Shown here piece after piece: positions 46,163 through 54,044 of a DNA stretch of 64,000 nucleotides. The notes beneath the pieces were generated by a model. That model made no database searches, was not told the DNA's origin, and was given only the letters and a program-made list of their open reading frames with translations. The stretch is taken from assembly GCA_963753055.1 (NCBI GenBank), contig CAVWAP010000004.1:832479-896478 (forward strand), written 5' to 3'. How positions within the stretch are numbered: position 1 is the stretch's first letter; each line of letters opens with the position of its first letter. The position numbers were made by a program, and so were the translations under genes. This stretch comes from an uncultured Bacteroidales bacterium. GTDB lineage: Bacteria > Bacteroidota > Bacteroidia > Bacteroidales > B18-G4.

Positions 46163-46182
46163 ATTAATCTAATACCTCCAAA

Positions 46183-46258
46183 TCTCTTTTCTCTTCTCTC
46201 TTCTCTCTTCTCTCTTCTCTCTTCTCTCTTTTCTCTTCTCTCTTCTCTCTTCTCTCCT
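46183..46258 (-). repeat. 76-nt polypyrimidine tract on + strand, i.e. (GAGAAGA)n on the minus strand
   Basis: Positions 46183-46258 contain only C/T. In minus sense the tract starts within the TAG stop (46257-46259 complement) of the radical SAM gene and ends 20 nt before the SGNH ATG (TTTGGAGGTATTAGATTAAT-ATG). Confidence 0.95.
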
Positions 46259-47420
46259 ACTTCCACACTCCCGCAATCTCTTCCATACAACTCTTGCATT
46301 TACCGTTTTCCAGGTTGTTCTGAATAATCTTATACCCTTTTCTTTCAATGACGATCTTTTTGCAGCCCGGACAATAGGTGTTTTCTGCATCTGAACCAGG
46401 CACATTGCCGATATAAACATAATTGATACCAGATGCCTTAGCTATTTCTCTTGCTTTTTCCAGGGTTTCATACGGGGTAGGGGGCAGCTTGGTCAGTTTG
46501 TATTGAGGATGAAAGCGGCTGAAGTGTAACGGGCTGTCTTTTAGCCCATTATCGTAGAGCCAATCGCACATCTTCCTAATCATATCAAAATCATCGGTCC
46601 ATTCGGGTACCAGCAAATTTGTGATTTCCAGCCATACTCCTTCTTCATGCAATATTTTAAGGGTGTTTAAAACTGGCTCAAGGGTGCCGGCATTAAGCAT
46701 CTCATAGATCTCATCACTGAAGCTCTTCAGGTCAATATTGGCTCCATCCAACACCTGGCACATCTCCCTTAAAGGTTTTTCGTTGATATAACCTGCAGAG
46801 ATAAATACATTCTTTATCCCCTCAGCCATAGCGATCCTGGCAGTGTCATAAGTATATTCGTAGAAAGCGATTGGATCAGTATAGGTATAGGCAATGGATT
46901 GACATTTGTAGGATTTACAATCCCTGACGACAGCCTCCGGCATTAAATCATAGTTCCTTGTGTCAAGCGGACTGGCTTGTGAGATGGACCAGTTCTGACA
47001 ATTCAAACAGGCCAGGTTGCAGCCTGCGGTTGCAATGGAAAATGCTGTGCTCGAGGGCAGGAAATGATAAAGTGGCTTTTTCTCGATCGGGTCGACATGG
47101 ACTGCACAGGGATTACCATATGCTATGCAGTAAAGCTTCCCCTTAATATTTCTTCTGGTGCGGCAGTCGCCTGTTTCATCTTCTTTGATATCACAAGCCT
47201 GGGGGCATAACTTGCACTTAATCCCTTTTGGAGTCTGGATGTAATACATGGCTTCAATACTCCACTTCCATAAATCATCCTCCGGCATATCAGGGACAAT
47301 GATTTTGCCTGCGCTCCTGGCCAGGCTGTCGGTTACATTTAGTCCAAGTGCGATCCCGCAGCACCCCAGTGCAGCATGTTTTAGAAATGTACGTTTGTCT
47401 ATGTCTTTTGAAGTCTTCAC
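46257..47420 (-). CDS. AmmeMemoRadiSam-system radical SAM enzyme with an N-terminal Tat-like leader
   Basis: 387 aa. CNLACLNCQNW (CxxxCxxC), upstream CKLCPQAC...GDC cluster, DPIEKKPLYHF. First ~40 aa are MKTSKDIDKRTFLKHAALGCCGIALGLNVTDSLARSAG. Confidence 0.8.
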   Translation of the reverse strand: MKTSKDIDKRTFLKHAALGCCGIALGLNVTDSLARSAGKIIVPDMPEDDLWKWSIEAMYYIQTPKGIKCKLCPQACDIKEDETGDCRTRRNIKGKLYCIAYGNPCAVHVDPIEKKPLYHFLPSSTAFSIATAGCNLACLNCQNWSISQASPLDTRNYDLMPEAVVRDCKSYKCQSIAYTYTDPIAFYEYTYDTARIAMAEGIKNVFISAGYINEKPLREMCQVLDGANIDLKSFSDEIYEMLNAGTLEPVLNTLKILHEEGVWLEITNLLVPEWTDDFDMIRKMCDWLYDNGLKDSPLHFSRFHPQYKLTKLPPTPYETLEKAREIAKASGINYVYIGNVPGSDAENTYCPGCKKIVIERKGYKIIQNNLENGKCKSCMEEIAGVWK

Positions 47421-47445
47421 ATAAAAGGCTTTCCTGGATATAAAA

Positions 47446-49581
47446 TTAGGCTTTTATTCTTTTTCCCATAACACTGAAGCTGATTAAAAAGTTTAATCCG
47501 GCGATGATCATACAGGTTTCCACAATTCCCAACAATGGAACAAGCATCAGGGCAGTTACCAGTGAACCAACAGTCGATCCCATCAGGTCCACACCATAAG
47601 TAGAAGATGCTGCCCTGCCAACATTACCTTCCTGGAGATGCGCAGCCTGTTTGAACTGAAATCCAATCATGATCCCGGTAACCAGGCTTAGGAGGTTGAT
47701 AATAATGATGATGGCTGTTTCAGAGCCACCAGGCTTGGATAAATACTGGATCGAAAGTGGAATAAAAATGGCTAATACCCCAATACCCAGCTGAAAGAAA
47801 TAATATTTCTTTCTGCTTGGAGATATCAACTTTGGGAGGATCAATGCCCCTAAAGCCAGGCCTCCCATAAATAATGTTATTAGTAAGCCCGTCATCTGGT
47901 AAACGTAACCATAGATGGCCTGGAAACAAATAATAAGGATAAACTCTATTGAGGCTCCGCTAAAACCACTGACGAACAAGGCTTTATTTATCCCATTGGC
48001 AAAGATGATCACTGTGATAGATAATAAAATAAGGAAGATGCCTATACCCCAGAGGTTGCTTCTGAAATGACTCAGCCAGTAGCTTAACTGAATGAAGTAG
48101 GATTTTGGTGCCAGGTCATGATTGACACCCACAGAGGGTTCCAACACTTCTTGAATTTTCTCAGACCTCATGGCTGTAAGTTCCGGGATATAATAGTAAG
48201 CATTAACATATGTGTTTTCAATACCTGACTTTAGTAAATGATCAAGTATATCAAAAGATAATGTTTTGTCAGAAGCTATAAAGTAATCATTTGTGCCAGG
48301 AAAGATGATGGTATGCTCAAATACAGATTGTAAGGTATTATTCAGCGTGGAATGTGATTGTATCAGTGCCGGGCTTAAATAATTGGCTGACGAAGGGAGA
48401 TGAATAGAAAAAATTCCATTGCTTTTCAATGCCTGTCTTACTTCAAGAAAAAACTCTAATGTATAGTAGCGATTTATCTGAGCTGTTGCAGGTGCCGGCA
48501 GGTCAATGATCACAACATCATATTCATTCTTTGTGTTGCGGATATGTCTTCTTGCATCCATGGATACAGGCCTTACGTTCGGAAATGAAAGAGCCTCAGT
48601 ATAAAGCTCTCCAATTTCAATCCAGGCAGGGTTGATCTCTATGTAATCTATCTGAATATCAGTGTATTTCTGAATTTCAAGGGTGGTGCCACTGATGCCT
48701 CCGGAAACAAGCAGGACCTTTTCCGGCTGATCATGCTGGGCCATGGCGTAATGAATTATTTCCTCATTCTTTTCGACCTGGTTTGAAGAGAAATATAAAG
48801 CACCATTCTCATAAAAATTAACCTGGCCGGCTGATTCAGCTAGTACGATCTTTCCATACGGTGTTTCCTGATGTAAAATTATATCCTGACCGGGGTATTG
48901 AAGCTGTGTAATGCTATCATCAATATCAACAATTAATAACAATGGAATAACGATGATACCCATCAATATTGATAAGATTGAGAGTATGCGGAATTTTTTG
49001 GATAGTGATAAAACAAGGACTGCAGAAATATTTAACCAGAAAAGAATAAACAATGAATGGAAAGCAGGTAGAACATGGGTTAGCAACAAACTAAAGATAA
49101 GGCCACCACTTATACTTCCAAGGGCTTCAATTCCATAGACTTGCCCGATACTTCTTTGATTGGTAAATTGTGTAAGTGTTGTGCAGAATAATGTAAATAA
49201 AGCACCGGATAAAAGGCAGAATGGAACCAGCATGGTGAAGGTCAATAACCATGTTTGGCCCGGACTAAACATTACTCCCGGCTTAACCAGTCCGGTTGAT
49301 ACCAGGTACATCCCGGCTATGGTTATAACCGGCAGTATTGCAATGATCAACTGGGTGATGCTGATAAATTGCAAATTGTATTGATGCTTGCCGCTGAAAC
49401 GTCCTAAGTATGCACCGGCACCGGTCAGTAACATCCAGTTGGACAAGAGAATTCCGATCACAAGCTCATTTCCCTGAAATATATTCAAGGCTTCCCTCAG
49501 TAATACAATTTGCGTTGCCAGGGCAGTAAATCCCATGATAAATATGGCATAACGCAAAGCACTTTCAATTCTGAGGTGCAT
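47446..49581 (-). CDS. polytopic membrane protein with a central spermidine-synthase-like domain (fused MFS/spermidine synthase type)
   Basis: 711 aa. About 7 hydrophobic helices, then VLLVSGGISGTTLEI and DVVIIDLPAP (SpeE/class-I MTase fold), then about 6-7 more helices. Confidence 0.7.
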   Translation of the reverse strand: MHLRIESALRYAIFIMGFTALATQIVLLREALNIFQGNELVIGILLSNWMLLTGAGAYLGRFSGKHQYNLQFISITQLIIAILPVITIAGMYLVSTGLVKPGVMFSPGQTWLLTFTMLVPFCLLSGALFTLFCTTLTQFTNQRSIGQVYGIEALGSISGGLIFSLLLTHVLPAFHSLFILFWLNISAVLVLSLSKKFRILSILSILMGIIVIPLLLIVDIDDSITQLQYPGQDIILHQETPYGKIVLAESAGQVNFYENGALYFSSNQVEKNEEIIHYAMAQHDQPEKVLLVSGGISGTTLEIQKYTDIQIDYIEINPAWIEIGELYTEALSFPNVRPVSMDARRHIRNTKNEYDVVIIDLPAPATAQINRYYTLEFFLEVRQALKSNGIFSIHLPSSANYLSPALIQSHSTLNNTLQSVFEHTIIFPGTNDYFIASDKTLSFDILDHLLKSGIENTYVNAYYYIPELTAMRSEKIQEVLEPSVGVNHDLAPKSYFIQLSYWLSHFRSNLWGIGIFLILLSITVIIFANGINKALFVSGFSGASIEFILIICFQAIYGYVYQMTGLLITLFMGGLALGALILPKLISPSRKKYYFFQLGIGVLAIFIPLSIQYLSKPGGSETAIIIIINLLSLVTGIMIGFQFKQAAHLQEGNVGRAASSTYGVDLMGSTVGSLVTALMLVPLLGIVETCMIIAGLNFLISFSVMGKRIKA

Positions 49582-49585
49582 TTTG

Positions 49586-49593
49586 TATATTTG
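49586..49593 (+). promoter_or_regulatory. -7 box TATATTTG for the Memo-AMMECR1 gene
   Basis: Matches TAnnTTTG, 29 nt upstream of ATG 49623, inside the 41-nt divergent spacer. Confidence 0.4.
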
Positions 49594-49622
49594 TTAATGG
49601 GGAATGTATATATACGAAATTA

Positions 49623-51143
49623 ATGAAATTTATGTGTAAGGTAAAATATATCCTTCTTATGATCACAGGTTTATTGTTCTTTGACGGCAGCCATGCCCAG
49701 GATAAAGGTGATGAAATTGCCCTGCAAAACAGAAAAGCGGTAGTTGCCGGCCAGTTTTATGACTCAGACCCTACGACTTTAAAAGCCAGCTTGAAACAGA
49801 TGTTCTCTGAAGCAGAACCTAAAAAATATGATAATGTGAAAGCTATTATCACTCCGCATGCGGGTTATGTTTTTTCAGGTGAAGTGGCAGCATCAAGCTT
49901 CAACCAGGTTGATGAAGAGGTGAGATATGATAATGTTTTTATCCTGGCTTCCAGTCACCGCATTGCTTTTAATGGGGCATCTATCTATAATGCAGGACAT
50001 TATGAAACACCTCTCGGAACAGTTAAGGTAAACCTGAGTCTTGCAAAAGAGTTAATCAAAGAGAACAGGGTGTTTACTTTCCGGGATGATGCCCATAGCT
50101 CAGAGCATAGTCTGGAAGTCCAGCTACCGTTTTTGCAATACAAGCTAAAAAATGAATTTCAGATCATCCCGATAGTTATTGGTACGCAGGACCCGGCAAC
50201 CTGTAAGGATATTGCCAGGGTGCTTAAGCCATATTTTAAGGGCAATAACTTATTTGTGATCAGTACCGACTTCTCACATTATCCTTCATATGAAGATGCT
50301 CAGATTGTAGATCATCTTACTGCAGATGCTATCGTATCAAAAGATCCGGATAAATTTTTACTGACCCTTGATAATAATGCTTCAAAGGGTATTGACAACC
50401 TGGTTACCAGCTGCTGTGGCTGGAGTTCTACTCTGAGCTTGCTTTATATGGTTGCTGACAGCCCTGACTATGAGCTTCATAAAGTCCAATACAAAAACTC
50501 GGGCGATGCTCAGTATTATGGAGATAAAGACAGGGTGGTTGGCTATTATTCCATCGTCGTTACGGGTCCGCAGGGTCAGCCATCAGGTGATGCTGACTTT
50601 AATCTGTCGAAGCAGGATGAGGACGATCTTCTGGCTATTGCCAGGAAAACATTGGAAGAGTATATCAGGAATGACAAAATACCATCTATTGATGAAACCG
50701 CCCTCTCTTCAAATATTAAAGAGCATTGCGGGGCTTTTGTATCACTGTATAAAGACAAGCATTTGCGTGGCTGCATCGGCCGTTTCAAGGTTGAAGAACC
50801 ATTATACCGGATCGTTCAGCAAATGACCATCGCATCAGCTACACAGGATTACCGCTTCCCAAGGGTGAATGAAACTGAGATCGAAAACCTGGATATCGAA
50901 ATCTCTGTCCTGACACCTATGCGTAAAATCAGCTCTATCGATGAAATTGAAATGGGCAAACATGGGATCTATATTAAAAAAGGCAGCGCCTCAGGAACAT
51001 TCTTGCCCCAGGTAGGATCACAGACTGGCTGGACCAAGGAAGAATATCTTGGCCATTGTGCAAAGGACAAAGCAAGGATAGGGTGGGATGGATGGAAGGA
51101 TGCTGAAATTTATATTTATGAAGCACTCGTCTTCGGCGAATAA
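49623..51143 (+). CDS. fusion of AmmeMemoRadiSam protein B (Memo-like) and protein A (AMMECR1-like) with a Sec-type signal peptide
   Basis: 506 aa. MKFMCKVKYILLMITGLLFFDGSHAQ leader. Memo motifs AGQFYDSDP, ITPHAGYVFSG, HSLEVQLPFL. AMMECR1 motif CGAFVSLYKDKHLRGCIGRF. Confidence 0.85.
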   Translation: MKFMCKVKYILLMITGLLFFDGSHAQDKGDEIALQNRKAVVAGQFYDSDPTTLKASLKQMFSEAEPKKYDNVKAIITPHAGYVFSGEVAASSFNQVDEEVRYDNVFILASSHRIAFNGASIYNAGHYETPLGTVKVNLSLAKELIKENRVFTFRDDAHSSEHSLEVQLPFLQYKLKNEFQIIPIVIGTQDPATCKDIARVLKPYFKGNNLFVISTDFSHYPSYEDAQIVDHLTADAIVSKDPDKFLLTLDNNASKGIDNLVTSCCGWSSTLSLLYMVADSPDYELHKVQYKNSGDAQYYGDKDRVVGYYSIVVTGPQGQPSGDADFNLSKQDEDDLLAIARKTLEEYIRNDKIPSIDETALSSNIKEHCGAFVSLYKDKHLRGCIGRFKVEEPLYRIVQQMTIASATQDYRFPRVNETEIENLDIEISVLTPMRKISSIDEIEMGKHGIYIKKGSASGTFLPQVGSQTGWTKEEYLGHCAKDKARIGWDGWKDAEIYIYEALVFGE

Positions 51144-51185: not shown

Positions 51186-54044
51186 CTACCTCCCACATAT
51201 CCTGATATAAGGACAGTACTTACAATTTTCTAATTCTTCTGTTTGACTAAATGAATTGTTCGGATCGAAGATCTTTTCAAGGATTGAGATAATAACATTT
51301 ACCACAAGTGTTTTTTCTTCTTGATTGATTTCCAGTATCTTGCTCTTGAGTTTTATAGGCAGCAAACCCTGGCTTGATTTAGGCACAGATAGAATTCCTG
51401 CATTGCAGGTGACTGTTTTATCCGGATTGTTTTGGAGATAGAGGTAGGAGTATATTAATAATTGCAAAGCCTGGGCATAATTGGCATCATGCTCAAGGTC
51501 CTCCCAGTCCTTGATGTTCAAGTGTGTTGGATTGACCATCCCTGTTTTGTAGTCCATAACCAGGATATGACCATCCAGCTCATCTACCCTGTCAATAGTG
51601 CCTTTGATCAGGATTGGCAGTGAGCCATTTCCTGTTTCAATATTTATATTGCTGGTGAACCGCTCTTCCAGGTACCTGATGATCCACGACTGACTTTTAC
51701 CTCCGGTCTTATCGAAGATATCTGCATGCACCATGCGCTTGATCCACTGGACGGCTACCCGGGTGATAAGATAATTCTTGCCGTAGTCAGTATCACCGCC
51801 CGTATAATATTGCCGGAATGCAAGGTGGACTTCCTTTTCTATTTCCTTTTCGTTTATTTTAATCTTATCCCTTTGCAGTTGCTGATTGATGTATGGAGTT
51901 ATCAGCTTTTTGAGAGCCTGGTGGACAACGCTCCCCATAGTAGCAGCATCAATGCTTTCATCAATTTCCTCCGGCTCACTAAGCCCCAGTATTTCAGTGA
52001 AATAGAACTTAAGCGGACAGCGGATATACAGGTTGATAGAGCTTGGGGAAAAGCCTTTTTCAGCCTTGGATTTTAGTTTATCTATGATGCTGGCATCCTT
52101 TGGGATCTCTATTGGAGCTGGCAGTTCATTTCTTACATCGCTGCCTAGCAGATGCTCACTGATCTGGATCCCAGGATTATATTTTGGCATCTCATACATG
52201 AGTTGAGTGATAAACCTTGACTTATCACCTCCACCGAGTTCATCAGCTTCGGTGTTGTAGACCAGTGTGATGTCTTTTGCACGCTGGGTCAGCCGGTAAA
52301 AATGGTAAGCGAAAATTGCATCCTTTTCTCGATATGTGGGTAGCTTAAATTCCCTGCGAATATCAAACGGAATAAAACTTTGATAGTTCTTGCCTGTTGG
52401 CAGGATGCCCTCATTGGCAGATAACAGTATTATTTTTTCAAAGTCAAGCGCCCTGGTTTCCAGCATTCCCATGATCTGAATCCCTTCAAGGGGCTCTCCG
52501 TAGAAGGGCAGGGATGACATACTGAGAATATTGTTGAATACTTTTCGTAAAGTTTTTGTGCCTATTTCCAACTTGTAAGTTTCCAGGATATTAACCAGGT
52601 TTGTAATGGCTTTTGAGAAGGCATATAAGTATTCAAACTCAAGTTTCTGATCCTCCTCAGTCTCTTCCTTTTTCAATATAAAAACATCACGCAGGCATTG
52701 AATGATCTCCATCATACTTCTCATTGCTGACACGGGGTCCTCCCAGGTTCTAAAGATCAGTGAAAAGTATGCCATGGTATATGTACCGGCATTCTCCAAC
52801 TGGCCTAATAATGCCCCTGGTGTTATAAAAACCTGGTTGGATTGAGTAAGTTGCACAATGAATGATGATATCTCAAAGGCACTTTTATCAATAAGATCCA
52901 GTGACCTGGAATAAGGATGTTTTAGAATGTTGAGCAGGTCACGCGTTAAAAACCTTTCCTGATCATGATTCTGTAAACGCCTGATCCTTTCTGCATTCTC
53001 ATGCAATGACATGATAGATTCAAGAAGTGCATACAATGGAGTGTGCTCCAGCCCCAGGCCCATGGTAACATTGAATGCACGAACGCTGGAAGGAATGGAA
53101 TTCAACATGGGGAGAAGTAATGCCTCGTCTGCCAGTACAATGGCTGTACTGTAATGAGAAGCAGCATCCCCGGGTATCCCGGAAATCAATTCCCCTGTGA
53201 TCTTTACCTGCCCGGCGGTCTTTGGTACTCCAATAACCTCGATTTTTTTCTTGCCCTCTTTGAACGCATTATCAACCCAGTTGAACCCGGTGAGGTTCCA
53301 TTGTCTTTTATAATTCCGTAGAAACTTTCCTGCCTCCTGGATCTCATTGTCCATGTAATAAGCATCAGTATCCCACAGCACCTCTGCCTGCCCGGTCCTG
53401 ATCATGGTCCTGATTATCTTTTCTTCCGAAGCCGTTAATGCATTAAATCCAATAAAAATGATCTTATGGTATTTCTCTGTCCACCTTTGATCCGCAATAC
53501 TATCCGCGGCATTTTTAGAGACCAGGCCCTGGTAGCCTTGCTTTTGCTCCAGTAAATTACTGGTAAACAGTTTGTAGTAATCAATCAAAGAGTTAAAGAA
53601 TCGCAGGTAATTCAGTTCAAACTCAGTGAGCGGTTCCTCTCCCAGGGTCCATTTGTCTATTACTTTCGTTTCACTCAGGTAGGAATACAGACTGTCAGCC
53701 TCAACGAGATACTGGTCAATATCATTGAAATCAGCGATCAACACATTACCCCATCTGATAAACTGGTCAAAGGTCTGGGCATTCTCTTTTTCAATGTTTT
53801 GATGTACCCTGTACAATTGAAATATCAAGTTTGTATTGTCGATGATCCTCAGTCCTGATAACTGTTCAGCAACTTCTTCAATAGTATAAAAAACTGGTGC
53901 AAAAAACGGTTGATCTATATGCTTTGCGAGGTGGTTCTTGAGAAATAATGATGCCCTTTTGTTTGGCAGCACAATACATAAAGACGACAGCTGATCCTCA
54001 TAGTGCTTGAGTATAAATTCTGCCGATCTCTCTAAGAATGTCAT
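51186..54044 (-). CDS. AddB-like PD-(D/E)XK nuclease family protein
   Basis: 952 aa. C-terminal nuclease region with DRVDELDGHILVMDYKTG and terminal Cys cluster ...CKYCPYIRICGR, as in AddB/Cas4-type Fe-S nucleases. No adjacent UvrD/AddA-like helicase in the window. Confidence 0.65.
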   Translation of the reverse strand: MTFLERSAEFILKHYEDQLSSLCIVLPNKRASLFLKNHLAKHIDQPFFAPVFYTIEEVAEQLSGLRIIDNTNLIFQLYRVHQNIEKENAQTFDQFIRWGNVLIADFNDIDQYLVEADSLYSYLSETKVIDKWTLGEEPLTEFELNYLRFFNSLIDYYKLFTSNLLEQKQGYQGLVSKNAADSIADQRWTEKYHKIIFIGFNALTASEEKIIRTMIRTGQAEVLWDTDAYYMDNEIQEAGKFLRNYKRQWNLTGFNWVDNAFKEGKKKIEVIGVPKTAGQVKITGELISGIPGDAASHYSTAIVLADEALLLPMLNSIPSSVRAFNVTMGLGLEHTPLYALLESIMSLHENAERIRRLQNHDQERFLTRDLLNILKHPYSRSLDLIDKSAFEISSFIVQLTQSNQVFITPGALLGQLENAGTYTMAYFSLIFRTWEDPVSAMRSMMEIIQCLRDVFILKKEETEEDQKLEFEYLYAFSKAITNLVNILETYKLEIGTKTLRKVFNNILSMSSLPFYGEPLEGIQIMGMLETRALDFEKIILLSANEGILPTGKNYQSFIPFDIRREFKLPTYREKDAIFAYHFYRLTQRAKDITLVYNTEADELGGGDKSRFITQLMYEMPKYNPGIQISEHLLGSDVRNELPAPIEIPKDASIIDKLKSKAEKGFSPSSINLYIRCPLKFYFTEILGLSEPEEIDESIDAATMGSVVHQALKKLITPYINQQLQRDKIKINEKEIEKEVHLAFRQYYTGGDTDYGKNYLITRVAVQWIKRMVHADIFDKTGGKSQSWIIRYLEERFTSNINIETGNGSLPILIKGTIDRVDELDGHILVMDYKTGMVNPTHLNIKDWEDLEHDANYAQALQLLIYSYLYLQNNPDKTVTCNAGILSVPKSSQGLLPIKLKSKILEINQEEKTLVVNVIISILEKIFDPNNSFSQTEELENCKYCPYIRICGR

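What the first reader, a model, noticed from the sequence alone, without database searches (positions are those of the whole stretch)
46257..51143. AmmeMemoRadiSam locus with predicted export signals on all soluble parts and an embedded spermidine-synthase-like membrane protein
Seen: 49623-51143 fuses a Memo-like N-half with an AMMECR1-like C-half (LRGCIG) behind a Sec-type leader (MKFMCKVKYILLMITGLLFFDGSHA/QD). Divergent from it, across only 41 nt, a 711-aa protein has about 7 hydrophobic helices, a central SpeE/class-I-methyltransferase-like domain (VLLVSGGISGTTLEI, DVVIIDLPAP) and about 6-7 more helices. Applying the positive-inside rule by hand (basic loops RFSGKH and SKKFR inside) puts the central domain on the outer face. 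The radical SAM partner (CNLACLNCQNW) follows 25 nt downstream, and its first ~40 residues resemble a Tat leader with a KR pair (DKRTFLKHAALGCCGIALGL...ARSAG). The polypurine spacer and the SGNH hydrolase come next on the same strand. Known: AMMECR1, Memo and a radical SAM enzyme form a conserved trio defined by comparative genomics, with unknown substrate and function. Radical SAM and aminopropyl/methyl transfer need SAM or dcSAM, which are normally cytoplasmic. Tat exports folded Fe-S proteins. Inference: this organism may run the whole system outside the cytoplasm, with the polytopic SpeE-like protein as membrane partner (supplying a cofactor or substrate, or modifying an envelope target). 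I do not know of this being described.
Basis: partly seen in the sequence, partly recalled or inferred. Interest (0 to 1): 0.8.

Follow-up and report, generated by a model that had tools for sequence, protein, structure and literature searches.

The report
Exported AmmeMemoRadiSam system with membrane partner
A three-gene module in a Bacteroidales genome appears to place a radical SAM enzyme and its Memo–AMMECR1 partner outside the cytoplasm, next to a transporter-like membrane protein that displays a spermidine-synthase-fold domain on the outer face. If this is real, it would be the first radical SAM system known to work in the periplasm.

Summary
All ORFs, domains, spacers (41 nt and 25 nt) and N-terminal sequences are as described.

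- The radical SAM leader is conserved. It reads S/T-K-R-x-F-L/I-K in 113 of the 120 closest homologs. In Spirochaetota-, Terriglobia- and "Woesearchaeota"-labelled relatives, and in about 25 of 150 distant representatives, the same position carries the canonical S-R-R-x-F-L-K.
- tatC lies inside or next to the cluster in six related loci.
- The Memo–AMMECR1 fusion carries a classical Sec/SPI leader that ends small-x-small/Gln (the Bacteroidetes Q-rule) in 62 of 68 complete homologs.
- The 711-aa protein is a 6+2+6 MFS-like 14-helix protein (AF2 pLDDT 89). Family-level K+R is 13.4 on the inside loops against 1.5 on the outside loops, which puts the SpeE-fold domain outside.
- The membrane gene is linked to the other two genes in 44 of 48 testable genomes.

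The same radical SAM family is also found fused to DsbD_2, FMN_bind and NapH-like electron-relay modules. The SpeE-like domain keeps its adenosine-binding residues but lacks the dcSAM-selecting and catalytic aspartates, so it is not a spermidine synthase. The SGNH hydrolase and the GA repeat are not part of the module.

Caveats: nothing here is experimental; some lineages have a leaderless radical SAM gene; SAM supply by the membrane protein is inferred.

The parts
49623..51143 (+). Memo-AMMECR1 fusion protein (506 aa), AmmeMemoRadiSam components B+A in one polypeptide
   Evidence: Pfam and NCBIfam hits above cut-off. The fusion is conserved in 64 of 80 linked loci.
49623..49697 (+). Sec/SPI-type leader MKFMCKVKYILLMITGLLFFDGSHA / QD (residues 1-25, predicted cleavage before Gln26)
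   Evidence: An n-region, h-region and small-x-small/Q site are conserved in homologs. 62 of 68 complete leaders end this way, and the h-region KD is 2.37. Fits the Bacteroidetes Q-rule (PMC5837995).
49737..50558 (+). Memo (LigB-like) domain, residues 39-312
   Evidence: PF01875 E 1.6e-61; TIGR04336 247 bits.
50634..51134 (+). AMMECR1 domain, residues 338-504, with the LRGCIG motif
   Evidence: PF01871 E 5.7e-48; TIGR04335 154.6 bits. The motif is seen in the translation.
49582..49622 (.). 41-nt divergent intergenic region between the fusion gene and the membrane-protein gene
   Evidence: Sequence. The fusion gene is divergent in some related loci and co-directional in others.
47446..49581 (-). 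711-aa 14-helix MFS-like membrane protein with an inserted SpeE-fold domain
   Evidence: AF2 pLDDT 89.3, pTM 0.89, 7+7 helices. The family is present in 543 GTDB species genomes. It is adjacent to the fusion gene and/or the radical SAM gene in 44 of 48 testable loci.
48925..49581 (-). TM1-TM7 (residues 1-219): the first 6-helix repeat plus central helix TM7
   Evidence: Hydropathy; AF2 helices; TM1-6 are homologous to TM9-14 (hhalign prob 95%, E 4e-8).
48055..48924 (-). Central SpeE-fold domain (residues 220-509), predicted to face the periplasm
   Evidence: Foldseek TM-score ~0.72 to 1uir, 1inl and 3o4f. Positive-inside statistics are 13.4 vs 1.5 K+R. E315 and D342 are kept, the D101 equivalent is never Asp, and K305/R344/N370/R371/D489 are invariant.
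47449..48054 (-). TM8-TM14 (residues 510-711): central helix TM8 plus the second 6-helix repeat
47421..47445 (.). 25-nt spacer between the membrane-protein gene and the radical SAM gene (same strand, operon-like)
   Evidence: Sequence. The radical SAM gene follows directly, or overlaps, in most related loci.
46257..47420 (-). AmmeMemoRadiSam radical SAM enzyme (387 aa, GTG start)
   Evidence: TIGR04337 379 bits. AF2 pLDDT 92.5. The core is closest to PFL-activating enzyme 3cb8/8fo0, TM-score 0.81-0.83.
47301..47420 (-). Tat-type leader or signal anchor (residues 1-40). The D-K-R-T-F-L-K motif is at 47379-47399, followed by a Gly/Ala/Cys-rich h-region.
   Evidence: KR motif in 113 of 120 homologs. 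RR at the same position in non-FCB orthologs. h-region KD 1.69 with 51% G/A/C. Helix 9-37 is detached from the core by a disordered linker at 38-54.
46998..47021 (-). CX3CX2C radical SAM cluster motif (C134, C138, C141)
   Evidence: Invariant in alignment A7, together with the Cys sets C69/C72/C76/C86 and C350/C353/C375/C378.

Best explanation
This is a conserved three-gene, extracytoplasmic variant of the AmmeMemoRadiSam system.

How the parts are placed:
- The radical SAM enzyme has a PFL-activase-like core with three Cys clusters. It is made and loaded with its Fe-S clusters in the cytoplasm, then moved across the inner membrane by Tat. It uses a KR version of the twin-arginine leader, which may stay attached as an anchor.
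- The Memo-AMMECR1 fusion is exported unfolded by Sec and cut by signal peptidase I before Gln26.
- The third gene encodes a 14-helix MFS-type membrane protein. A SpeE-fold domain inserted between its two central helices sits on the periplasmic face.

Proposed role of the SpeE-fold domain: it has kept the adenosine-binding pocket but lost the dcSAM-selecting and catalytic aspartates. I therefore propose that it handles the adenosyl cofactor for the exported enzyme, by delivering SAM and/or removing 5'-deoxyadenosine or MTA through the MFS part. The target would be a membrane-associated or envelope substrate.

Shown by computation: domain identities, leader conservation, topology, gene linkage.
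Inferred: actual export, the SAM-handling role, and the substrate.
For: - Identities.
- Tat-type leader: 113 of 120 closest homologs have [ST]KRxF[LI]K. In linked loci the count is 46 KR, 5 RR, plus 2 further RR cases (L010, L043) that the automated count missed. About 25 RR leaders occur among 150 distant representatives, and there are many RR leaders in an independent metagenome sample.
- tatC (PF00902, E 1e-55 to 1e-60) lies inside or beside the cluster in 6 loci.
- The leader is detached from the fold. Its h-region is significantly less hydrophobic and more Gly/Ala-rich than the partner's Sec leader (1.69 vs 2.37, p 9e-24).
- A natural KR Tat signal is known (TtrB; PMC1182353).
- Sec/SPI leader with Gln at +1; PMC5837995.
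- Topology. Natural fusions place FMN_bind one helix after TM14.
- Linkage: 38 of 48 loci have both partners and 6 of 48 have the fusion gene only. Only these three families are conserved across the loci.
- Electron supply across the membrane is suggested by fusions of the same radical SAM family to DsbD_2, FMN_bind and Fer4_5. P0377 and P0383 have no helix between FMN_bind and the radical SAM domain.
- Ligand pocket of the SpeE-like domain.
Against: - No experimental localisation exists. SignalP, TatP and DeepTMHMM could not be run, so the leader calls rest on motifs, conservation and hydropathy.
- KR is invariant in the FCB group, although Lys substitution is poorly tolerated in E. coli (PMC7317946).
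- TatC was not found in the 64-kb window. The rest of the genome was not available.
- Some family members put the Fe-S domain behind a Sec-type leader (P0365, L118, L122), which does not fit the logic that Fe-S proteins need Tat.
- In one subgroup the radical SAM gene is leaderless while Memo-AMMECR1 is exported or anchored (L137, L139, L144, L147, L148, L151, L152).
- About 8 RR-leader loci with 8-10 kb flanks have no SpeE-like gene, so a SAM-supply function is not always encoded alongside.
- No periplasmic source of SAM or of a low-potential reductant is known in this organism.
Confidence: 0.6

Rival explanations
1. Split-compartment pathway. The radical SAM enzyme performs its SAM-dependent step on the cytoplasmic side. 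Either it acts before Tat transport, or it is exported pre-loaded with SAM for a single or regenerative turnover. The MFS part moves an intermediate or a lipid substrate outward, where the SpeE-fold domain and Memo-AMMECR1 finish the job. No free periplasmic SAM pool would be needed.
For: - Related lineages have a leaderless radical SAM gene next to an exported or anchored Memo-AMMECR1 and an MFS-SpeE-like protein.
- Tat exports folded proteins with bound cofactors (established knowledge).
- The PFL-activase-like core is compatible with a one-off activation of a protein partner.
- Several RR-leader loci lack the SpeE-like gene.
Against: - In the window's clade the Tat-type leader is conserved in essentially every ortholog. 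That argues that the mature enzyme's place of work is outside.
- The Sec-exported partner is unfolded during transport, so it cannot be modified beforehand.
- Fusions of the radical SAM domain directly after an FMN_bind ectodomain (P0377, P0383) imply catalysis outside.
Confidence: 0.2
2. Membrane-tethered but cytoplasm-facing system. The N-terminal hydrophobic segments are anchors that hold both enzymes at the inner face of the membrane, the SpeE-fold domain is cytoplasmic, and nothing is exported.
For: - SAM, dcSAM and low-potential reductants are cytoplasmic (established knowledge).
- KR is a weak Tat motif in E. coli (PMC7317946).
- No signal-peptidase site is conserved after the radical SAM leader.
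- In L151 the charges flanking the Memo-AMMECR1 anchor are ambiguous or favour C-in.
Against: - Basic residues precede both hydrophobic segments, giving an N-in, C-out orientation.
- The small-x-small/Gln cleavage site is conserved on the fusion protein.
- Orthologs carry the canonical SRRxFLK motif, and tatC is adjacent in some loci.
- The K+R bias across 90 homologs is about 9:1.
- The 6+2+6 MFS-type layout has its termini inside.
- FMN_bind lies on the same side as the SpeE-fold domain.
Confidence: 0.12
3. The 711-aa protein is an ordinary membrane-bound polyamine aminopropyltransferase or polyamine transporter that merely happens to lie next to the trio.
For: Pfam Spermine_synth and several NCBIfam polyamine aminopropyltransferase models give sub-threshold or domain-level hits. 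The fold is that of SpeE.
Against: - Linkage holds in 44 of 48 genomes across several phyla.
- All equivalog cut-offs are missed by a wide margin.
- The dcSAM-selecting Asp is absent in 114 of 114 members, and the catalytic Asp is replaced by Asn in most.
Confidence: 0.03

Closest known systems
AmmeMemoRadiSam system (NCBIfam/TIGRFAM TIGR04335, TIGR04336, TIGR04337; Memo-AMMECR1-radical SAM contexts of Burroughs et al. 2019, JBC, not readable here)
   Same: The same three protein families, all scoring above the curated cut-offs and encoded together.
   Different: - Memo and AMMECR1 are fused.
- Both soluble proteins carry export leaders that the family models do not cover (the models start at residues 37 and 65).
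- A third gene, the MFS-SpeE-like membrane protein, is conserved alongside.
Pyruvate formate-lyase activating enzyme (PflA; PDB 3cb8, 8fo0)
   Same: The best structural match to the radical SAM core: TM-score 0.81-0.83, rmsd ~2.4 A, with the CX3CX2C motif.
   Different: - Only 20% identity, and far below the PflA equivalog cut-offs.
- Extra invariant Cys sets (C69/C72/C76/C86 and C350/C353/C375/C378).
- A Tat-type leader.
- The substrate is unknown.
Spermidine synthase / polyamine aminopropyltransferase SpeE (PDB 1inl, 1jq3, 1uir, 3o4f)
   Same: The complete SpeE fold, including the N-terminal beta-hairpin domain. The ribose-binding Glu (E315) and the adenine-contacting Asp (D342) are conserved.
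   Different: - The Asp of GGGDGG is always hydrophobic here.
- The catalytic Asp is Asn in most members.
- There are new invariant residues: K305, R344, N370, R371, D489.
- The domain is inserted into a 14-helix membrane protein and predicted to lie outside the cytoplasm.
NCBIfam NF037959 'fused MFS/spermidine synthase' and PRK03612-type membrane-bound SpeE homologs
   Same: An N-terminal polytopic region followed by a SpeE-like domain. NF037959 scores 42 bits against a cut-off of 40.
   Different: Here a second 7-helix block follows the domain (7+7), and the gene is tied to the AmmeMemoRadiSam genes. I found no published function for the family.
Tat-exported iron-sulfur proteins, including Salmonella TtrB with a natural KR signal
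   Same: An Fe-S protein with an S/T-[KR]-R-x-F-L-K leader and a weakly hydrophobic h-region (PMC1182353, PMC7317946).
   Different: The cargo is a radical SAM enzyme, which needs SAM and a low-potential electron donor. To my knowledge no such Tat cargo has been described, and none turned up.
Extracytoplasmic flavinylated electron-transfer modules (FMN_bind PF04205 with NapH/NosR-type Fer4_5; DsbD-type relays)
   Same: Relatives of this radical SAM enzyme, and of the MFS-SpeE-like protein, are fused to these modules.
   Different: The window's own three proteins carry no such module. The 840-aa variant of the membrane protein has only a faint DUF4405 / cytochrome-b-like N-terminal extension.

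Membership tests
AmmeMemoRadiSam system | Radical SAM enzyme matching TIGR04337 above cut-off | tested here: met
   379 bits against a cut-off of 220
AmmeMemoRadiSam system | Memo homolog matching TIGR04336 above cut-off | tested here: met
   247 bits against a cut-off of 26, residues 37-313
AmmeMemoRadiSam system | AMMECR1 homolog matching TIGR04335 above cut-off | tested here: met
   154.6 bits against a cut-off of 99, residues 336-504
AmmeMemoRadiSam system | The three families are encoded together | tested here: met
   Within 4.9 kb in the window. Both partners are adjacent in 38 of 48 related loci.
Tat signal peptide | Twin-arginine consensus S/T-R-R-x-F-L-K near the N-terminus | tested here: inconclusive
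   The window has D-K-R-T-F-L-K (KR, not RR). KR is invariant in FCB homologs, and RR occupies the same position in non-FCB orthologs. KR is a known natural variant (PMC1182353) but a weak one in E. coli (PMC7317946).
Tat signal peptide | Moderately hydrophobic, Gly/Ala-rich h-region followed by a c-region with a basic residue | tested here: met
   Maximum 12-residue KD is 1.69 against 2.37 for the Sec leader of the partner, with 51% G/A/C. R35 and K39 follow the h-region.
Tat signal peptide | Tat machinery (TatC/TatA) present in the genome | not testable with these tools
   There is no TatC in the 64-kb window and the rest of the genome is not available. tatC is adjacent to the system in 6 related loci.
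Tat signal peptide | Tat-dependent export shown experimentally | not testable with these tools
   Needs a tatC mutant or a KR-to-KK variant and fractionation.
Sec/SPI signal peptide (Bacteroidetes Q-rule) | Basic n-region, hydrophobic h-region, small residues at -3 and -1, Gln at +1 | tested here: met
   MKFMCKVK / YILLMITGLLFF / DGSHA | QD. 62 of 68 complete homolog leaders end small-x-small/Q. PMC5837995.
Spermidine synthase (SpeE) family | SpeE fold and Pfam PF01564 match | tested here: met
   PF01564 59.9 bits against a cut-off of 22.9. Foldseek TM-score ~0.72.
Spermidine synthase (SpeE) family | Equivalog-level score (TIGR00417, NF002010, NF002956) | tested here: not met
   61 vs 249.6 bits, 79 vs 260 bits, and 166 vs 472 bits
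Spermidine synthase (SpeE) family | GGGDGG Asp that binds the aminopropyl amine of dcSAM (T. maritima D101) | tested here: not met
   Ile296 in the window. The position is never Asp in 90 + 24 family members.
Spermidine synthase (SpeE) family | Catalytic Asp pair (T. maritima D170 and D173) | tested here: not met
   The window has D360 and A363. Across the family the first position is N in 64 of 90 and D in 21 of 90; the second is D/E in 78 of 90. Neither position is invariant.
Major facilitator superfamily (14-TM type) | Two homologous 6-helix bundles in the same orientation, with both termini inside | tested here: met
   hhalign of TM1-6 against TM9-14: prob 95%, E 4e-8. K+R-rich N-terminus, C-terminus and even-numbered loops.
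Major facilitator superfamily (14-TM type) | Sequence or structure match to known MFS transporters | tested here: inconclusive
   No Pfam MFS hit. Profiles of the TM halves find nothing in the PDB. The Foldseek list was filled by SpeE hits. Only NF037959 passes, marginally.

The most novel reading that the evidence does not exclude
Radical SAM chemistry takes place outside the cytoplasm. A Tat-exported radical SAM enzyme and its Sec-exported Memo-AMMECR1 partner act on an envelope or membrane substrate. A dedicated MFS transporter with an adenosyl-binding ectodomain delivers SAM and/or removes 5'-dA. In other lineages, electrons arrive through fused DsbD-, FMN_bind- or NapH-type relays. This would be the first extracytoplasmic radical SAM system and the first dedicated route for supplying SAM to the periplasm. 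It would also restrict the unknown substrate of the Memo/AMMECR1 families to something membrane- or envelope-associated.
Probability: 0.35. Interest if true: 0.9.

Novelty: new variant of a known kind. Interest (0 to 1): 0.78.

Why it matters
- Radical SAM enzymes are regarded as strictly cytoplasmic, because they need SAM and a very low-potential electron donor. A widespread family with twin-arginine leaders, exported partners, a conserved membrane protein showing an adenosine-binding domain on the outer face, and natural fusions to transmembrane electron relays would challenge that view. It would also imply that SAM is trafficked to the periplasm.
- It gives a handle on a long-standing open question, namely what Memo and AMMECR1 do (both are linked to human disease). 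An exported version cannot act on RNA or cytoplasmic metabolites, which narrows the substrate to envelope or membrane molecules.
- It offers a compact three-gene module that can be tested by fusions, knock-outs and lipid or envelope profiling.

Tried and rejected
- Literature: no paper in the held library links AmmeMemoRadiSam, AMMECR1 or Memo to Tat, the periplasm or flavinylation, and none deals with the fused MFS/SpeE family. Burroughs et al. 2019 (PMC6664185), the key comparative paper, is not held, so prior description of some contexts cannot be excluded.
- SGNH hydrolase and GA-repeat spacer as parts of the system: rejected, because only three gene families are conserved over the 80 loci.
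- TatC in the window: none found.
- RR versus KR usage by other Tat substrates in ~1 Mb of related DNA: too few candidates to say.
- Profiles of the two TM halves against PDB sequences: no relatives.
- Lipobox reading of the conserved Cys in the radical SAM leader: rejected. The Cys lies only ~9 residues after KR, the preceding residues do not fit L-[AS]-[GA]-C, and its position is not fixed in RR-type orthologs.
- Lipoprotein reading of the fusion protein: possible for the many homologs with a Cys 1-4 residues before the Gln (47 of 68), but the window protein has no Cys there.
- A 21-sequence RR-type alignment (A5) was too diverse for the locus scan, so a 7-sequence one (A6) was used instead.
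- My automatic leader classifier mislabelled several RR leaders as 'none' (L084, L096, L104, L111, L125). I corrected these by eye, so the cross-tabulation in that call should not be used as printed.

Full report
**Observation**

- The 506-aa protein is a Memo (residues 39-312) plus AMMECR1 (338-504) fusion that passes the curated cut-offs of TIGR04336 and TIGR04335.
- The 387-aa protein is an AmmeMemoRadiSam radical SAM enzyme (TIGR04337, 379 bits against 220). The family model begins only at residue 65.
- The 711-aa protein has a Spermine_synth domain at 272-395 and marginally passes NF037959, 'fused MFS/spermidine synthase'.
- The fourth ORF is a GDSL/SGNH hydrolase.

The GA-rich spacer is a 7-nt tandem repeat of 10.6 copies.

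**Are the leaders real?**

Among the 120 closest homologs of the radical SAM enzyme (64-96% identity, Bacteroidota MAGs), 113 carry [ST]-K-R-x-F-[LI]-K followed by a Gly/Cys/Ala-rich hydrophobic stretch. The other seven are truncated or mis-started.

In 58 loci recovered through the neighbouring membrane gene, the motif is KR in 46 and RR in 5. The RR cases are the Spirochaetota-labelled loci (L011, L045) and three of the 'Woesearchaeota'-labelled loci (L046, L068, L073). Reading the sequences also shows RR in L010 and L043 (Terriglobia-labelled), which the automated count left as unclassified.

An exhaustive search of 1.84 billion cluster representatives gave 7,506 relatives. I classified the best 150 by eye from the sequences printed, because the automatic tally there under-counts. 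About 80 are leaderless, about 25 carry a canonical twin-arginine leader (for example MDRRGFLR…, SRRDFIKK…, ISRREFLK…), a few carry KR or RK, and the rest are fusions.

So the KR leader is the FCB-group form of an ordinary Tat leader at a homologous position.
- Its h-region is much less hydrophobic than the leader of the partner protein (maximum 12-residue Kyte-Doolittle score 1.69 against 2.37; 51% against 9% Gly/Ala/Cys; Mann-Whitney p 9e-24). That is the textbook difference between Tat and Sec signals (PMC7317946).
- In the AlphaFold2 model (pLDDT 92.5), residues 9-37 form a lone helix. A disordered linker (38-54, pLDDT about 50) joins it to a very confident core.
- tatC (PF00902, E 1e-55 to 1e-60) lies inside or next to the cluster in six related loci, including four of the five 'Woesearchaeota'-labelled ones.
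- A natural KR Tat signal is known for the Fe-S subunit TtrB, and Arg1-to-Lys is tolerated at reduced rate (PMC1182353). However, Lys is poorly tolerated in E. coli in general (PMC7317946), so the strict KR conservation is unexplained.

The Memo-AMMECR1 fusion has a basic n-region, a 12-residue h-region and the site S-H-A / Q-D. Of 68 homologs with a complete N-terminus, 62 end small-x-small/Gln. This matches the Bacteroidetes Q-rule for signal peptidase I substrates (PMC5837995, PMC10653852). Every fusion partner in the linked loci, including those from the divergent lineages, starts with a hydrophobic leader, lipobox or anchor.

**The membrane protein**

- Family-averaged hydropathy gives 7 + 7 hydrophobic helices, and so does a confident AlphaFold2 model (pLDDT 89.3, pTM 0.89).
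- Over 90 homologs, the short loops on the N-in side carry 13.4 K+R per protein, against 1.5 on the other side.
- TM1-6 and TM9-14 are homologous and run in the same direction (hhalign probability 95%, E 4e-8). The layout is therefore 6+2+6, as in 14-helix MFS transporters, whose termini are cytoplasmic. The soluble domain is inserted between the two extra central helices, on the outer face.
- An independent check comes from natural fusions (L151, L152, L148). There the same protein continues with exactly one more hydrophobic helix, then an FMN_bind domain with the T-G-A-T flavinylation motif, then NapH/NosR-type Fer4_5 motifs. FMN_bind domains of this type are extracytoplasmic (established knowledge of RnfG, NqrC and NosR). 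This requires the end of TM14 to be inside, and it places the SpeE-fold domain on the same side as FMN_bind.

The central domain has the complete SpeE fold (Foldseek TM-score about 0.72 to 1uir, 1inl and 3o4f). Aligned to Thermotoga SpeE and counted over 90 + 24 family members:
- The ribose-binding Glu (E315) and the adenine-contacting Asp (D342) are kept.
- The Asp of GGGDGG, which binds the aminopropyl amine of dcSAM, is never Asp.
- The catalytic Asp is Asn in most members.
- K305, R344, N370, R371 and D489 are newly invariant.

This is an adenosyl-ligand-binding domain, not a spermidine synthase.

**Linkage**

Relatives of the membrane protein occur in 543 GTDB species-representative genomes. 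Of the 80 loci fetched, 48 have enough flanking sequence to judge. Among those, 38 have both the fusion gene and the radical SAM gene next to the membrane gene, 6 have the fusion gene only (mostly an 840-aa variant), and 4 have neither. All-against-all clustering shows that only these three families are conserved (80, 64 and 58 loci), so the SGNH hydrolase is not part of the module.

A second, independent sample seeded with non-FCB RR-type radical SAM enzymes again found a Memo-AMMECR1 fusion with a leader and an MFS-SpeE-like gene beside many RR-leader genes. The module is therefore not confined to Bacteroidota.

**Further context**

The radical SAM core is closest to pyruvate formate-lyase activating enzyme (TM-score 0.81-0.83), the type that acts on a protein or peptide loop. 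It has two additional invariant four-Cys sets.

Distant members of the same family are fused to other modules:
- DsbD_2 (P0363, P0370).
- DsbD_2 + FMN_bind + Fer4_5 (P0382).
- FMN_bind + Fer4_5 (P0372, P0374).
- A single anchor helix + FMN_bind (P0377, P0383).

In the last two there is no hydrophobic helix between FMN_bind and the radical SAM domain, so both domains lie on the same side of the membrane. These fusions point to electrons being relayed across the membrane to this enzyme family.

**What most likely happens**

- Shown by computation: the three genes form a conserved module; the radical SAM enzyme has a Tat-type leader; the fusion protein has a Sec/SPI leader; the SpeE-fold domain is predicted on the outer face.
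- Inferred: the Fe-S enzyme is exported folded by Tat and may stay anchored by its leader, since no cleavage site is conserved. The partner is exported by Sec. The MFS-like protein supplies or clears the adenosyl cofactor: SAM outward, 5'-dA or MTA inward. The substrate is an envelope or membrane molecule.

I rate the extracytoplasmic placement at about 0.6-0.7, and the SAM-handling role of the membrane protein at about 0.3.

**Evidence that does not fit**

- Some relatives place the Fe-S domain behind a Sec-type leader. Examples are the triple fusion P0365, and L118 and L122.
- One subgroup has a leaderless radical SAM gene beside an exported or anchored Memo-AMMECR1.
- About eight RR-leader loci with 8-10 kb flanks lack the SpeE-like gene.

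These observations keep alive a split-compartment model, in which the radical SAM step happens on the cytoplasmic side or with pre-loaded SAM and the MFS part moves an intermediate.

**Comparison with what is known**

By all curated criteria this is a member of the AmmeMemoRadiSam system. It is a variant of that system: export leaders, a Memo-AMMECR1 fusion, and a conserved MFS-SpeE-like third gene. It is not a member of the spermidine synthase family in the functional sense, because defining residues were tested and not met.

I found no paper describing an exported version. However, the main comparative study (Burroughs et al. 2019) could not be read. From memory, its abstract links Memo contexts to nucleotide-base and isoprenoid modification, and that is a lead, not a test.

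**Verdict**

It is a new variant of a known kind, of high interest because it predicts radical SAM chemistry and SAM trafficking outside the cytoplasm, and because it narrows the possible substrates of Memo and AMMECR1.

Noticed in passing
window 46183-46256: A perfect-looking 7-nt tandem repeat (TCTCTTC on the + strand, 10.6 copies, 95% matches) fills the gap between the radical SAM stop codon and the SGNH hydrolase start. The antisense ORF at 46169-46420 (…REERREKRKE…) is an artefact of this repeat. Neither the repeat nor the SGNH gene is conserved next to the module in 80 related loci.
   Followed up: partly
L005, L009, L022, L025, L030-L032, L036, L041, L051, L053, L058, L062, L069, L079 (first ~130 codons of the SpeE-like gene): An ~840-aa variant of the membrane protein adds about three N-terminal helices with conserved His residues (HRKxWN … LHVDFG … FHFxWH). 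It gives only faint hits to DUF4405 (E 0.004) and to prokaryotic cytochrome b561 (E 0.014), so it is possibly a haem-binding electron-relay module. In 6 loci with this variant the radical SAM gene is not adjacent.
   Followed up: partly
P0363, P0370, P0382, P0372, P0374, P0377, P0383: Radical SAM domains of the same family are fused to DsbD_2, FMN_bind and NapH/NosR-type Fer4_5 modules. P0377 and P0383 have a single anchor helix, an FMN_bind domain with the SGAT flavinylation motif, and then the radical SAM domain with no helix in between.
   Followed up: partly
L151:12772-16689, L152:3185-6631, L148:3623-6724: These are 1,030-1,300-aa proteins that join the MFS-SpeE-like protein to one more helix, an FMN_bind domain and NapH-like Fer4_5 motifs. 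The neighbouring radical SAM gene in these loci is leaderless, while Memo-AMMECR1 has an anchor or lipobox.
   Followed up: partly
L041:6020-6835, L046:14365-15048(-), L057:4470-5165, L068:5986-6687, L073:4438-5124, L077:2-445(-); also L153:2359-3132: tatC genes (PF00902) lie inside or directly beside the module. In L153, tatC sits immediately upstream of a leaderless radical SAM gene.
   Followed up: partly
P0365 (835 aa); L118:1620-2744; L122:9821-11008: Radical SAM domains of this family sit behind Sec-type (non-RR) leaders. P0365 is a Sec-leader + Memo + AMMECR1 + radical SAM triple fusion. It is unclear how Fe-S clusters would be inserted if these proteins go through Sec.
   Followed up: no
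window 47340-47375 (residues ~16-27 of the radical SAM protein) and homologs P0001-P0120: One or two Cys residues (G-x-C-G, here LGCCGIALG) are conserved inside the Tat-type h-region. They do not form a convincing lipobox, and their role is unknown.
   Followed up: partly
L006, L010, L039, L046, L057, L066, L068, L073: MAGs labelled Nanoarchaeota, Woesearchaeota or Methanosarcinales carry this module with bacterial-style RR leaders and tatC. Their fusion proteins are divergent (about 335-367 bits against about 800). This could be a distinct lineage, horizontal transfer or mis-binning.
   Followed up: no
P0408, P0416, P0418, P0432, P0433, P0437, P0443, P0446, P0451, P0455, P0456: These are ~900-1,150-aa representatives with a leaderless radical SAM domain at the very N-terminus. 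They are presumably cytoplasmic multi-domain fusions of the system. I did not analyse them.
   Followed up: no
window 51186-54044 (-): A 952-aa ORF lies next to the fusion gene. Homologs sit in the same position in 7 related loci (for example L013:235-3153), which looks like local synteny among close relatives rather than membership of the module.
   Followed up: no
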